Shown: positions 55,964 through 63,217 of the stretch, piece by piece
How the letters are laid out: each line of letters starts with the position of its first letter
Numbering within the stretch: position 1 is the stretch's first letter
DNA from: Octopus vulgaris
Taxonomy: Eukaryota
Length of the DNA stretch: 64,000 bases
NCBI GenBank assembly: GCA_951406725.2
Contig: OX597837.1
Location: forward strand, 7,936,001-8,000,000
Direction: 5' to 3'
Translations under genes and position numbers: made by a program
Notes under the pieces: generated by a model
What the model saw: the letters and a program-made list of their open reading frames with translations, nothing else
The model's database searches: none
What the model was told of the DNA's origin: nothing

Positions 55964-56572
55964 CGCAGGAGTGGCTGTGTGATAAGTAGCTTGCTAAACA
56001 ACCACATGGTTCCGGGTTCAGTCCCACTGCGTGGCAACTTGGGCAAGTGTCTTCTGCTATAGCCCTGGGCCGACCAATGCCTTGTGAGTGGATTTGGTAG
56101 ACGGAAACTGAAAGAAGCCTGTCGTATATATGTGTATATATATATAAGTGTGTGTGTATATTTGTGTGTCTGTGTTTGTCCCCCTAGCATTGCTTGACAA
56201 CCGATGCTGGTGTGTTTATGTCTCCGTCACTTAGCGGTTCGACAAAAGAGACCGATAGAATAAGTACTGGGCTTACAAAGAATAAGTCCCGTGGTCGATT
56301 TGCTCGACTAAAGGCGGTGCTCCAGCATGGCCGCAGCCAAATGACTGAAACAAGTAAAGGAGTAAAAGAGTAAAGAGTATATTATAAATATATATACATA
56401 TACATACGTACGAGTGGCCGTGTGGTAAGTAGCTTGCTTAAGAACTACATGGTTCCGGGTTCAGTCCCACTGCGTAGCACCTTGGGCTAATGTCTTGTAC
56501 TATATCGTCGGGCTGACCGGACCCTTGTGAGTGGATTTGATAGACGGAAACTGAAAGAAGCCCGTCGTATAT

Positions 56573-58771
56573 ATGGAGCGGTTCAACTTCTCCAGGCGCC
56601 AACGCCGCCTCAACATCTCCCCGGCTGAGCTCTTGGCTCTTCGTTCCCTCCAACGGCGCGCTGACATTATCATCAAACCGGCTGACAAGGGTGGAGCTGT
56701 AGTGGTGTGGCGCGCGGACCTCTATAGGGCCGAGGCTTTCCGCCAACTCAATGACACCTCCTTCTACTCCCCTCTGCCCTCTAACCCCACACGTAGCTAC
56801 CAACAGACGGTATCCTCTACTGTCCGCGACCTCATCTCGTCCTCCCGTCTCCCCCACACCGCATCCAATCTAATTGTGCGAACCCCACGTACCCCCACCA
56901 TTTACTTCCTCCCCAAAATCCACAAACCCAACAACCCTGGCCGCCCCATCGTCTCCGCCTGTAACTGCCCCACGGAGCTCATCTCTAAATACCTCGACCG
57001 TGTCCTTGCCCCCCTAGTGGCATCTCTTCCCTCCCACATCCACGATACCAACCATGCTCTCCGGCTTTTCAACTCTTTCTCCTTTCCTCCCGGCTCCTCC
57101 AAAATCCTTTTTACTATGGACATCCAAAGCCTCTATACTGTTATCCCTCACCACGAAGGACTGCAGGCCCTTCGACACTTTCTTGACCTCCGCTCCAACC
57201 CTGTACCTGACACCTCCACACTCATTCGTCTGGCCGAACTTGTCCTTACTCTGAACTGCTTCTCGTTCGCGGGCGAGTTCTACCATCAGGTCTCGGGAGT
57301 GGCCATGGGAACGCGAATGGGCCCCAACTATGCGAACCTGTTCGTTGGCTATGTTGAGGCCCAAATATTCTCTAATTTCACTGGTCCCACTCCTGAACTA
57401 TATGGTCGTTACATTGACGACATTATCGGTGCCACCTCACTCTCCCGTGAACATCTAGATTCCTTCCTCTCTTTCGTCCAATCTTTCCATCCAGCCCTCC
57501 ACTTCACTTCCACTATCTCCAACACCTCTGTCTCCTTCCTCGACATTTCGGTTAGCATTCTTCACTCCACTCTTACCACCTCCATTCACTACAAACACAC
57601 AGACTCACACTCATACCTCAACTTCTCTTCCTCCCACCCAGAACACACCAAGCTTTCCATCCCCTATTCCCAATTCCTCCGTCTACGTAGGCTCTGTAGT
57701 GACGACCATGACTTTGAGACTCAGTCTCAACGTATGGCTCACCACTTCACCCTACGTGGATACCCCCTCACCACTATCCACACCGCCCTTGCCAGAGCAC
57801 GGTCCGTGGACCGTGTATCTGCTCTCTCTCCCCGAACCCGCCCTGTAGTCTCCCGCCTCCCTTTTCCCCTCACTTACCACCCCACGACCCTACGTCTCCA
57901 ACGCACCATTCTTCGAGCTTTCCGTCATCTCCAGTCCGACCCGTCCACTTCACACCTCTTCCCTAACCGACCCCTCCCCTCTTTCAAACGAGCCCACAAC
58001 CTTCGAGACCTTTTGGTCCATAGCTCCTTCCCTGACCCTACCTCCCAACCCGGCTCGTTCCCCTGCTCCCGCCCACGTTGCCGCACTTGCCCTTACCTCT
58101 CCAACACCACCCTCCTCACTAGCACCCATCATCGACCCTATCCCATCATCCACTCCTTCACCTGCACCTCCAGCAATATTATCTATTGCGTCTCTTGCTC
58201 TCTCTGCCATTCCTTGTACATCGGACAAACGGGACGCCGCTTGGCTGACCGGTTCGCGGAACACCTTCGTGACATCCACCTTGCGAACGACACACCGGTC
58301 TCTCGCCATTTCCGCTCCACCGGTCACTCCTTGCAACACCTATCTGTGTTCGGTTTGTCCTTACACAGAGGCCATCCGGATTCCCGTTTGCGCCGTGAAC
58401 AGGAATTAATCTTCTCTCTTCGCTCTTATACGCCATTTGGTCTCAACTCTCCCCCCTCCTCATCTAACCCCCTCTCCCCCCTCCTCACCTACCTTTCCCC
58501 CGACCCCTACTTCTTCAGTCCTTCATCCTTTCACCCCTACTCCCTTCCCTTCTTCCCTCTTTCTCCCTCCCTCCTTCCCTCTTCCCCTTCCCTCTGCTCC
58601 CTCACTCCCCTTCTCTCTCCCCCTCTCCCTCTTTCCTCCTTCCTCCTCCCCTCCTCCTCCCCTTCCTTCTCCCCCTCCTCTCCTCCCCCTCTTCTCCTCC
58701 CCCTCTTCTCCTCTCTCCACACTACACCACATGACTTTACACATCACATCATATATGATGTGCCATACTAA
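56573..58771 (+). CDS. Penelope-like element RT / GIY-YIG endonuclease ORF (Neptune-like), 5'-truncated; homology ends near 58446 (PFGLN) and the rest is low-complexity extension
   Basis: IIIKPADKGGAVVV, YFLPKIHK, GRPIVS, TMDIQSLYT, GVAMGTRMGPNYANLF, YGRYIDD, linker CSRPRCRTC, NIIYCVSCSLCHSLYIGQTGRRLADRFAEH, REQELI. Confidence 0.95.
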   Translation: MERFNFSRRQRRLNISPAELLALRSLQRRADIIIKPADKGGAVVVWRADLYRAEAFRQLNDTSFYSPLPSNPTRSYQQTVSSTVRDLISSSRLPHTASNLIVRTPRTPTIYFLPKIHKPNNPGRPIVSACNCPTELISKYLDRVLAPLVASLPSHIHDTNHALRLFNSFSFPPGSSKILFTMDIQSLYTVIPHHEGLQALRHFLDLRSNPVPDTSTLIRLAELVLTLNCFSFAGEFYHQVSGVAMGTRMGPNYANLFVGYVEAQIFSNFTGPTPELYGRYIDDIIGATSLSREHLDSFLSFVQSFHPALHFTSTISNTSVSFLDISVSILHSTLTTSIHYKHTDSHSYLNFSSSHPEHTKLSIPYSQFLRLRRLCSDDHDFETQSQRMAHHFTLRGYPLTTIHTALARARSVDRVSALSPRTRPVVSRLPFPLTYHPTTLRLQRTILRAFRHLQSDPSTSHLFPNRPLPSFKRAHNLRDLLVHSSFPDPTSQPGSFPCSRPRCRTCPYLSNTTLLTSTHHRPYPIIHSFTCTSSNIIYCVSCSLCHSLYIGQTGRRLADRFAEHLRDIHLANDTPVSRHFRSTGHSLQHLSVFGLSLHRGHPDSRLRREQELIFSLRSYTPFGLNSPPSSSNPLSPLLTYLSPDPYFFSPSSFHPYSLPFFPLSPSLLPSSPSLCSLTPLLSPPLPLSSFLLPSSSPSFSPSSPPPLLLPLFSSLHTTPHDFTHHIIYDVPY

Positions 58772-59087
58772 TACATACACCAACTAATACATACTAATAC
58801 ATACTAATACATACACCAACCCTATACATACACCAACCCTATACACACACCAACCCTATACATACACACGTCCAGACCTCTCATACGCACTAATACTCTC
58901 TCATACATACACACACACCCTTATGTTGGAGCTGGTCACTCAACCCTATTATCTCCCCTAATTTCGCTCTCGCGTCTCATGTTTGATCTTTGACTTCTGG
59001 CCGAAATCAGATCGCCATGTTGATTCGTTAGTTACTGCACGCATTTTTTTTCTCTCCTTCTTTCTGTGTTTTTTTTCTCTCTGTGTA

Positions 59088-59125
59088 TCTTTCTGTTGAA
59101 GAGCGTAGGCTCGAAACGTTAAAGA
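59088..59125 (+). ncRNA. Minimal hammerhead motif of the PLE 3' end with a variant core (CUGUUGA)
   Basis: TCTTT-CTGTTGA-A-GAGC-gtag-GCTC-GAAA-CG-TT-AAAGA; the same core variant occurs at 2522-2559. Confidence 0.65.
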
Positions 59126-59222
59126 CTTGTTTTATTTATATTTCCTGAGCGCCATACTAATACAATTGTTTGTTTGTTTTCCACCTGCCTTCGTCTTTTG
59201 TCTATTTTCATAAAGCTTCCCG

Positions 59223-59263
<41 letters not shown>

Positions 59264-59269
<6 letters not shown>

Positions 59270-59652
59270 TATGTATGTATGTATATAGACACATACAGTT
59301 ACACATGCACATACGAATCATACACACACATATATACGCACACACCCATATACATATACGCACCACACACACACACACATACACATATAAATCCTAAATT
59401 CACGTCATTTGAAAGTCAGTTTAAAAAATCCCAATGGAACATTTACTAGTGGAACGACCCCACAACAGGGGTAGAGTCATGTTCCATTGGGATTTTTTAA
59501 ACTGACTTTCAAATGACGTGAATTTAGGATTTATATGTGTATGTGTGTGTGTGTGGTGGTGCGTATATGTATATGGGTGTGTGCGTATATATGTGTGTGT
59601 ATGATTCGTATGTGCATGTGTGACTGTGTGTGTCTATATATATACATACATA

Positions 59653-59658
<6 letters not shown>
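59264..59658. repeat. Palindrome with ~180-bp arms and a 36-nt loop (59443-59478), flanked by (TA)n
   Basis: ...tcctaaattcacgtcatttgaaagtcagtttaaaaaatcccaatggaacat / atgttccattgggattttttaaactgactttcaaatgacgtgaatttagga... Confidence 0.9.
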
Positions 59659-59688
<30 letters not shown>

Positions 59689-59777
59689 TCTATATACACA
59701 TACATATGTATATACACATGCGCACATACTTGCATATCCATATACATATATGTATATATATATATATACATGTGTAT

Positions 59778-61548: not shown

Positions 61549-61592
<44 letters not shown>

Positions 61593-61664
61593 GGGAGTAA
61601 ATCGAAACTTACAGGGAAAAATTAGATTTAGGATTAAATCTAATTTTACAGTATAAATATATAA

Positions 61665-61921
61665 ATTAAATTAGAGATAAAACCACTATTAGGCAAGTCA
61701 AACAGTGAAAAACATAAACCGAAACATAGAAATAAAGTTAATTAATATAATATACAAAATATATAAAATATAAAATTCAAAATTTAAAATTTTAAATTTA
61801 GAATTTAAATTTTGAATTTTATATTTTATATATTTTGTATATTATATTAATTAATATTATTTCTATGTTTTGGTTTATGTTTTTCACTGTTTGATTTGCC
61901 TAATAGTGGTTTGATCTCTAA

Positions 61922-61927
<6 letters not shown>
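61665..61927. repeat. AT-rich imperfect palindrome, ~130-bp arms, almost no loop, between (TA)n tracts
   Basis: attaaattagagataaaaccactattaggcaagtcaaacagtgaaaaacataaacc... mirrored by ...ggtttatgtttttcactgtttgatttgcctaatagtggtttgatctctaatttaat. Confidence 0.85.
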
Positions 61928-61978
<51 letters not shown>

Positions 61979-62081: not shown

Positions 62082-62681
62082 GTATCTATCTATATACGGT
62101 CATTATATACCTCATACTTTCCTCATACATAATACCGAACCAAGCAAATTATCACGTGACGAGATGGGTAGTCTTTTTCTTTGACAATTATGATAGAGTC
62201 ACCAAATTCACCCTCAAATTTGGTTTTAAAGTTACTCGTCAGTTCGGTTCCCAAATCAAATTACTAACATTGTTCGAAGATAATCAAAACCATTATGTTC
62301 TATCAGAATGTCAACGAATCCCAGAAGACTAAAATTTTTACGAAATTGACCAATAAACCTATTAAAGATGTCTCCCAAACACCATTAGACTAGCGTAAAA
62401 GATGCAAACTCACGAACATCATCGCGAAATGTAGAAAGCGCATGATATATCTTTCTTTGTCTTTTACTTGTTTCAGTCATTCGACCGTGGCCATACTGAG
62501 GCACCGCCTTGAAGAATTCTTTGTTGAATGGTTCGACTCCAGTCCGTATTTATTCTTATTTGAGGCCTGGTAAATATTCTATCGGTCTCTTTTTAGTGGA
62601 ACAAACACAGACACAAACACACATTCACTCTCTCTCTCTGTCACTGTCTGTCTTGCTCAGTTTCTCAATATATATATATAT

Positions 62682-63108
62682 ATAACAAAAGGGACATTAG
62701 CCATTTGAATGTGGCTAGGGACAGGGCAGGGCGGTGGGGGTGTTACTGTTGCATTTAGCCCCAGGCGAACATCAACGTCACCAGAAAGGCTTGACACCAT
62801 CACGGCGTCCTCTATCCTGCAAAGGGAGATCATCTACCGAAGAAGCGGAAGCCACATACGGACCCAGGTTTCGAGGTGTTTGCCTCTCGTCAACGTATGG
62901 TAGGCATCGCCTTTCGATGAACGACTCTCCATATGTGGCTTCCGCTTCTTCGGTGGATGATCTCCCTTTGCAGGATAGAGGACGCCGTGATGGTGTCAAG
63001 CCTTTCTGGTGACGTTGATGTTCGCCTGGGGCTAAATGAAACAGTAACACCCCCACCGCCCTGCCCTGTCCCTAGCCACATTCAAATGGCTAATGTCCCT
63101 TTTGTTAT
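62682..63108. repeat. Foldback element: 181-bp arms (62682-62862 / 62928-63108, about 3 mismatches) and a 65-nt loop
   Basis: Direct reverse-complement comparison; the left end abuts (TA)n. Confidence 0.95.
62855..62899 (-). ncRNA. Type I hammerhead ribozyme in the foldback loop; predicted cleavage between 62861 and 62860
   Basis: CATACG-TTGACGA-GAGG-caaaca-CCTC-GAAAC-CTGG-GTC^CGTATG; perfect 6-bp stem I, 4-bp stem II, GUC triplet, C3U core variant. Confidence 0.8.
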
Positions 63109-63150
63109 GGAGCAGTTACTGTCTATATCTCATTTAGAGAATTATTATTG

Positions 63151-63217
<67 letters not shown>

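What the first reader, a model, noticed from the sequence alone, without database searches (positions are those of the whole stretch)
62682..63108. Foldback element whose inverted arm starts at a hammerhead cleavage site
Seen: a 427-bp hairpin with 181-bp arms. On the minus strand the loop holds an HHR whose GUC^ site (62861/62860) lies within 2 nt of the arm boundary (62862), so the duplicated arm is essentially the 3' cleavage product, which ends at (TA)n. The 3' strand of stem I (CGUAUG) is also the start of the long stem, making ribozyme and long hairpin mutually exclusive folds. Inference: either a direct footprint of how self-cleavage defines the inverted pseudo-LTR during PLE-type reverse transcription, or a non-coding rod-like ribozyme retroelement with a built-in conformational switch. 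The core has C3U (U3-G8), so this copy may be weakened.
Basis: partly seen in the sequence, partly recalled or inferred. Interest (0 to 1): 0.85.

Follow-up and report, generated by a model that had tools for sequence, protein, structure and literature searches.

The report
Ordinary Penelope-type retrozyme insertion, chance breakpoint
The hairpin is real, but it is one truncated copy of a common 358-base ribozyme-bearing repeat that is likely pasted in by a Penelope-type jumping-gene enzyme, and its fold point lies near the ribozyme cut site no more often than chance across the other copies examined.

Summary
The hairpin and the type I hammerhead are real. The inferred link between them is not. 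The element is a 471-bp insertion (62682-63152) of a 358-nt tandem, ORF-less retrozyme family with at least 773 tail ends in this genome. Copies end at two fixed points 44 nt apart, sit in (TA)n and carry 11-14-bp duplications at non-TA targets: the known Penelope-like (PLE) signature. In 153 unbiased loci, 4 of 294 5' ends fall within -2..+5 of the cleavage site (5.1 expected), against 210 read-throughs. In the canonical-core sister family it is 0 of 95. This copy's true break is at +3/+4. U3 is fixed in the subfamily (37 of 37), not copy decay. The 'switch' is a by-product of inversion, met in 34 of 49 comparable loci. What remains of interest: ends pair almost obligatorily (94 AB, 1 BB, 0 AA) and junctions are near-symmetric, suggesting two polymerases starting on one RNA. 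The scan noted similar PLE foldbacks in other genomes.

The parts
62669..62681 (.). (TA)n target, left side
   Evidence: sequence; 118 of 130 A-type and 123 of 139 B-type ends in the family abut TA runs
62682..62932 (-). Direct arm (end type A): unit positions -72 to +179 relative to the cleavage site; holds the single hammerhead
   Evidence: one substitution (62835) against sister copy L002 over +3..+179
62851..62905 (-). Type I hammerhead: distal stem 62905-62903/62853-62851; stem I 62899-62894/62860-62855; core with U3 62893-62887; stem II 62886-62873; 2-bp stem III with self-complementary loop 62869-62862; predicted cleavage 62861/62860
   Evidence: cleavage itself not tested
62928..62933 (.). 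Head-to-head inversion junction: 1-nt exact overlap (62932) inside a 4-of-5 near-microhomology
62932..63108 (+). Inverted arm (end type B): unit positions +3 to +179
   Evidence: one substitution (63039)
63109..63152 (+).
   Evidence: tail end followed by AT matches 773 places in the genome
63153..63192 (.). (TA)n target, right side
   Evidence: sequence

Best explanation
This is a young, 5'-truncated insertion of a 358-nt tandem hammerhead repeat (a non-LTR retrozyme) with the end structure of Penelope-like elements, and it was likely written by a borrowed PLE reverse transcriptase-endonuclease that likely started one cDNA on each cut strand of a (TA)n target from two fixed sites on the RNA. 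Shown: ends at +179 and +223, head-to-head arms, TA targeting, target duplications in sister copies, scattered 5' breakpoints, read-through of the cleavage site. Inferred: the enzyme cuts both strands with an about 12-nt stagger; one cDNA starts at +179 and the other at +223 on an uncleaved multimeric or re-ligated circular RNA; both stop early at variable points and are joined head to head, often through 1-4 nt of microhomology. In this copy one cDNA stopped at about -72 and the other at +3/+4, near the cleavage site by chance. With a single ribozyme whose stem III is predicted to need a partner copy, and with stem I blocked by the inverted arm, this copy is predicted to be a dead end.
For: Unit and tandem arrays: 357 of 358 identity between neighbouring units in L009; arrays of 2 kb and more; 30 of 314 arms hold two or more whole ribozymes. 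Ends: unbiased two-sided loci are 94 AB, 1 BB, 0 AA and 17 with one untyped end. Duplications of 11-14 bp at non-TA or partly non-TA targets, e.g. L045, L062, L069, L160, L170, L190. No pile-up: 4 of 294 ends within -2..+5 against 5.06 expected, p=0.75; 210 read-through passes; canonical-core family 0 of 95 with 68 passes. Microhomology of 2 nt or more at 34% of 87 flush junctions against 16% at random. In 51 of 83 two-arm loci, this one included, neither arm is contained in the other. The two arms of a locus are closer to each other (mean 1.6%) than to other loci of the family (5.0%) in 61 of 65. Literature: an inverted 5'-truncated copy plus a one-sided 30-40-bp tail is typical of PLEs (PMC8557442, passages; PMC3846280, passages). 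PLE protein cuts both strands at AT-rich DNA and starts at two internal sites whose spacing is the tail; hammerhead cleavage was not needed for insertion in vitro (PMC11167929, parts 1-2 of 4).
Against: No autonomous PLE sharing sequence with the unit was found: the RT-EN element at 56.6-59.2 kb shows only 11-nt chance matches to the units. The tail (44 nt) is a little longer than the 30-40 bp in the cited papers. 9 ends among all 164 loci, the window included, do lie within -5..+8 of the site, so a small run-off contribution (upper 95% bound about 5% of passes) is not excluded. The twin-start step cannot be told from fold-back plus trimming by sequence alone. No long reads and no cleavage or expression data.
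Confidence: 0.8

Rival explanations
1. Same family and enzyme, but the inverted arm is made by fold-back self-priming of one cDNA, and the 44-nt asymmetry by endonuclease trimming of one end.
For: Junctions are near-symmetric more often than chance: within 40 nt in 31 of 80 loci against 12.2 on permutation. Arms within a locus are alike. Self-priming and EN-mediated resolution are proposed in PMC3846280 and PMC8557442.
Against: In 51 of 83 loci neither arm contains the other, so trimming must be added. The tail-less arm reaches further 5' in 58 of 77 untied loci, which this model does not predict. Two start sites were seen in vitro for another PLE.
Confidence: 0.3
2. One reading: self-cleavage defines the inverted arm, because reverse transcription runs off the 5'-OH end of the cleaved RNA.
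For: This copy's break is 2-3 nt from the site. L084, L111, L124, L068 and L045 also end at +2 to +5. A first, smaller pass showed a broad excess over +1..+30 (23 against 15.1, p=0.03).
Against: No excess at the site in any of three window widths; 0 of 95 in the canonical-core family; 156 of 294 arms read through. The tip is at +3/+4, not +1, and the longer near-microhomology would need template beyond the cut.
Confidence: 0.06
3. A self-propagating rod-like foldback element with an evolved ribozyme on/off switch.
For: The two folds are mutually exclusive in silico.
Against: The junction at this position was not seen in another of the 164 loci. Occlusion of stem I occurs in 34 of 49 two-arm loci with a whole ribozyme simply because arms overlap. 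The copy is shorter than one unit in each direction.
Confidence: 0.02
4. Assembly or library foldback artefact.
For: Long palindromes are a known artefact class (own knowledge). No laid contig spans the whole stretch, which is uninformative for a repeat.
Against: Each arm has its own substitution, and only one has the tail. 98 of 164 loci share the same AB architecture with different junctions.
Confidence: 0.02

Closest known systems
Non-LTR retrozymes of metazoans (Cervera and de la Pena 2020, PMC7229834; Li et al. 2026 preprint 10.64898/2026.07.22.740005)
   Same: 150-450-bp tandem unit with one type I hammerhead, no long ORF, dispersed monomers to multimers, duplications longer than 4 bp; mussel units are about 350-390 bp (passages).
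   Different: Most copies here carry non-consensus cores (U3 with G8, or C4). Copies show inverted arms and a fixed tail; 'inverted' has 0 occurrences in PMC7229834 and 1 (a reference title) in the preprint, and 'tail' has 0 in the preprint (supplements not seen). Circular RNA was not tested here.
EN+ Penelope-like element insertions with inverted 5'-truncated copy and tail (PMC8557442 Fig. 2 legend; PMC3846280; PMC11167929)
   Same: Partial tandems, head-to-head inverted copy, one-sided tail between two fixed ends, AT-rich or (TA)n targets, duplications of about 10 bp, microhomology junctions, hammerhead in the repeat.
   Different: No RT or GIY-YIG ORF in the unit. The ribozyme has canonical proportions (6-bp stem I, 4-bp stem II), not the minimal PLE form of PMC4209133. 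No partner element identified.
L1 twin priming
   Same: Inverted 5' segment joined head to head by microhomology; two primers from the two target strands.
   Different: In L1 the second start is variable and internal; here both starts are fixed and 44 nt apart.

Membership tests
Type I hammerhead ribozyme | Three helices around the core, with covariation | tested here: met
   96% of 150 cells paired, 4 pairs with two-sided changes over 10 haplotypes, slid controls 19-58%; the rows are related, so not independent
Type I hammerhead ribozyme | Consensus core C3 U4 G5 A6 N7 G8 A9 / G12 A13 A14 / A15.1-U16.1 / H17 | tested here: not met
   U3 opposite G8 in 37 of 37 subfamily matches; all other positions match. 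A sister family at 81% identity has the full consensus
Type I hammerhead ribozyme | Match to an Rfam hammerhead model | tested here: not met
   no hit at E<=1 in the window or at E<=0.5 in 4 loci including the canonical-core L154, so the models miss this short-stem-III form
Type I hammerhead ribozyme | Self-cleavage | not testable with these tools
   needs an in vitro assay
Non-LTR retrozyme | 150-450-nt head-to-tail unit with one type I HHR per unit | tested here: met
   358, 359 and 360-nt units; tandem arrays
Non-LTR retrozyme | No protein-coding ORF and no LTR | tested here: met
   longest open frame 83 codons, broken by frameshifts in sister families, no homologue among longer proteins (weak negative); PBS and PPT were not searched
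Non-LTR retrozyme | Expressed as linear and circular monomers | tested here: inconclusive
   only assembled contigs of uncertain type were available
PLE-type integration | Inverted 5'-truncated copy with a one-sided tail | tested here: met
   98 of 164 loci have the AB architecture; the window is one
PLE-type integration | AT-rich or (TA)n target with a duplication of about 10 bp | tested here: met
   of 117 two-sided loci, 79 pure-TA, 20 other duplications (several partly TA), 18 none; not resolvable in the window itself
Autonomous PLE | ORF with RT and GIY-YIG endonuclease | tested here: not met
   none in the unit; RT hits in 4 fetched loci lie outside the mapped arms
Non-autonomous derivative of a named PLE | Shared pLTR or tail sequence with an autonomous partner | tested here: inconclusive
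   only the one PLE in the window was compared, with no similarity; no genome-wide partner search was run

The most novel reading that the evidence does not exclude
The family is a genomic record of two PLE reverse transcriptases loading at two fixed sites on one RNA, the trailing one stalling just behind the leader (ends pair A with B in 94 of 95 typed loci; near-symmetric junctions have the leader 4-37 nt further in 22 of 28). In addition, lineages with weakened ribozyme cores (U3 or C4, more than 1,400 motifs) have out-multiplied the consensus-core lineage (44 motifs by one pattern), as if slow cleavage favours spreading.
Probability: 0.25. Interest if true: 0.6.

Novelty: new member of a known kind. 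Interest (0 to 1): 0.27.

Why it matters
The flagged claim, that self-cleavage sets the inversion point, fails, and the copy itself is ordinary. The negative result has some use: across three sister families, including one with a consensus core, inserted cDNA reads through the cleavage site, so the template is likely uncut multimer or re-ligated circle. The family also joins two literatures. It is an ORF-less retrozyme carrying the full PLE integration signature, which is structural support for the proposal (2026 preprint) that animal retrozymes ride on PLE proteins. With hundreds of young copies and two fixed ends it is a convenient data set and substrate for the open question of how PLE inverted repeats and tails form.

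Tried and rejected
Rfam scans found no hammerhead; the MIR1858 hit (73.9 bits, gathering 137) only reflects a long hairpin. Sequencing runs: no RNA holder listed on record; contigs from 4 runs cover parts of the stretch, none spans it, so nothing was concluded on expression or on the palindrome. The 83-codon open frame in the unit: no homologue among longer proteins, frameshifted in sister families; rejected as a gene. The RT-EN element 4 kb upstream as sequence parent: no similarity. A broad excess of ends over +1..+30 (p=0.03) was not re-tested in the larger set and is not site-specific. One search mapped 40 loci only within 1.3 kb of their middle and truncated long arrays; the 29 affected chromosome-1 loci were remapped, and supersedes. 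Rows left out of counts: redundant fetches of the same place; L087, L106, L192 and the second copy in L177 (near-identical duplicates); L147-L153 and L155 (covered by L158 and L154); L207 (not analysed); segments under 15 nt and short AT-rich hits to unit 244-285. Eleven loci found through the ribozyme or the window itself were left out of the 'unbiased' set; including them gives 7 of 314 against 5.5, p=0.31. Paper searches found no paper naming this family or testing breakpoints against the cleavage site, and no passage on activity of a natural U3-G8 core; the library lacks most subscription papers, and no supplements were read.

Full report
Observation. The minus strand of the loop region holds a type I hammerhead with U at position 3 and a predicted cut at 62861/62860. 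Rfam does not detect it, nor a consensus-core relative. The structure is supported by comparison: over 10 haplotypes from the family, 96% of 150 cells pair, 4 of 15 pairs change on both sides, and stems I and III are 100% paired (related rows). The short stem III stays self-complementary in the main lineages. That is the dimer-type arrangement described for metazoan type I hammerheads (PMC4209133, parts 1-2 of 4).

The window lies in a 2.8-Gb genome; from the repeat landscape I guess a cephalopod, which is recall and untested. The element belongs to a repeat family whose unit is 358 nt, head to tail (357 of 358 identity between neighbours in L009). Numbering from the cleavage site, the window's minus-strand arm ends at +179 and the plus-strand arm continues 44 nt further to +223 (63109-63152) before (TA)20. 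These two ends are family-wide: 54 ends at +179 and 55 at +223 in the window's family, with equivalents in two sister families of 81% and 85% identity. An exact tail end followed by AT occurs 773 times. 241 of 269 typed ends abut TA runs, and several loci outside pure TA show 11-14-bp duplications. Of 164 distinct loci, 98 have head-to-head arms with one end of each type. This is the arrangement drawn for PLEs, an inverted 5'-truncated copy with a one-sided tail (PMC8557442, passages; PMC3846280, passages).

The junction. Against the closest sister copy L002, base 62931 and bases 62928-62930 belong to the direct arm. The simplest parse ends the inverted arm at +3/+4 with a 1-nt overlap; the alternative is a 4-of-5 microhomology reaching to -2. 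Neither is +1. The copy differs from L002 at one base in each arm and one in the tail, so it is young and the arms are not an exact duplicate.

The decisive test. I sampled loci by 3'-anchored patterns that do not depend on where arms stop: the matches listed for C1 to early C8 (100 of 216), all 47, 29 further chromosome-1 loci (of 773), and the loci of the first 100 of 117 matches. Each was mapped to a real unit. In 153 loci, 4 of 294 5' ends fall within -2..+5 of the cleavage site, against 5.06 expected from exposure (p=0.75). For inversion junctions alone it is 3 of 230 against 3.92. Arms read through the site 210 times; the stop fraction is 1.9% (95% CI 0.5-4.7%). The consensus-core family gives 0 of 95 with 68 read-throughs. 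Narrower and wider windows agree, and adding the window and 10 other ascertained loci gives 7 of 314 against 5.5. 3 of 114 unbiased inversion loci look like this one. Against my reading: five other loci do end at +2 to +5, and the smaller first pass showed a broad excess over +1..+30, so a minor run-off route is not excluded.

The switch. Folding confirms that stem I is lost in the full minus-strand transcript and forms without the inverted arm or in a natural tandem. But 34 of 49 two-arm loci with a whole ribozyme have the same overlap, and this junction was not seen in another mapped locus. It is a by-product of inversion.

The core. U3 is fixed in the window's subfamily (37 of 37; one consensus-core match with this stem I appears). 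A second pattern matches 1,404 motifs; of the 100 listed, 88 have C3 C4, 12 have U3 U4 and none has the consensus (my count). A consensus-core sister family gives 44 matches (an undercount, since a loop variant is missed). Natural U3-A8 covariation and a U-U pair at 10.1-11.1 are in print (PMC3088659, passages and section 8; PMC4209133). In what I read I found no activity data for U3-G8 (PMC7151607, 2 passages was uninformative). Reduced activity is inferred, not shown.

Mechanism. The best model borrows from the one reconstituted PLE: the protein cuts both strands at AT-rich DNA, starts at two internal RNA sites whose spacing is the tail, is predicted to be a dimer, and does not need hammerhead cleavage (PMC11167929, parts 1-2 of 4). 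Here unbiased two-sided loci are 94 AB, 1 BB and 0 AA, with 17 having one untyped end. In 51 of 83 simple loci neither arm contains the other, and arms within a locus match each other better than other loci in 61 of 65. Flush junctions have microhomology of 2 nt or more in 34% of 87, against 16% at random. The two stops lie within 40 nt of each other in 31 of 80 loci (12.2 on permutation), and the tail-less arm goes further in 58 against 19, more than independent lengths give (46.4, p=0.005; clear in the window's family, not in the smallest). I read this as two cDNAs started on one RNA; within the best explanation I give twin initiation about 0.6 and fold-back with trimming about 0.35. These steps are inferred.

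Comparison. By unit size, tandem layout and one type I hammerhead per unit, the family fits non-LTR retrozymes (PMC7229834, passages). A 2026 preprint proposes that these are non-autonomous PLE derivatives (10.64898/2026.07.22.740005, part 1 of 5 and passages). The helper was not identified. A 5'-truncated RT plus GIY-YIG-like element ending in (TA)n lies at about 56570-59224 but shares no sequence with the unit. Three earlier notes of this scan on other genomes reached similar PLE-foldback readings; none exists for this genome.

Verdict. A real feature and a new member of a known kind; the proposed link to the cleavage site is refuted as a family rule. Interest 0.27.

Noticed in passing
window 56570-59224 (+): 5'-truncated Penelope-like element with an open RT frame (RVT_1 E=7.7e-8), a Cys-rich linker and a weak GIY-YIG match (E=0.075), ending in (TA)n; Neptune-type by the linker (recalled criterion). 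Possible helper class, no sequence shared with the unit.
   Followed up: partly
window 14685 (-), 7326 (-), 59096 (+), 2551 (-): Motifs resembling minimal PLE-type hammerheads of other repeat families; the last two lack a consensus core.
   Followed up: no
window 61652-61940 and 59226-59696: Two more foldbacks flanked by TA runs (arms of 144 nt, and 141+77 nt); the first has a one-sided extension at about 61587-61651 and may be another tail-bearing stump.
   Followed up: no
G000 genome-wide: Lineages with non-consensus hammerhead cores (U3 or C4) far outnumber the consensus-core lineage while keeping stem I covariation and a self-complementary stem III.
   Followed up: partly
two-arm loci: The two 5' stops are near-symmetric far more often than chance, with the tail-less arm usually 4-37 nt further.
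   Followed up: partly
L194:3040-3098 (-): A fourth, more diverged relative of the ribozyme with a consensus core and another palindromic stem III.
   Followed up: no
L009:1431-1679 (-): An 83-codon open frame starting at the cleavage site; its last 55 or so codons stay open in all three families; no homologue found.
   Followed up: partly
L087/L088, L105/L106, L191/L192, L177: Near-identical pairs of insertions 4.5-160 kb apart, probably segmental duplications.
   Followed up: no
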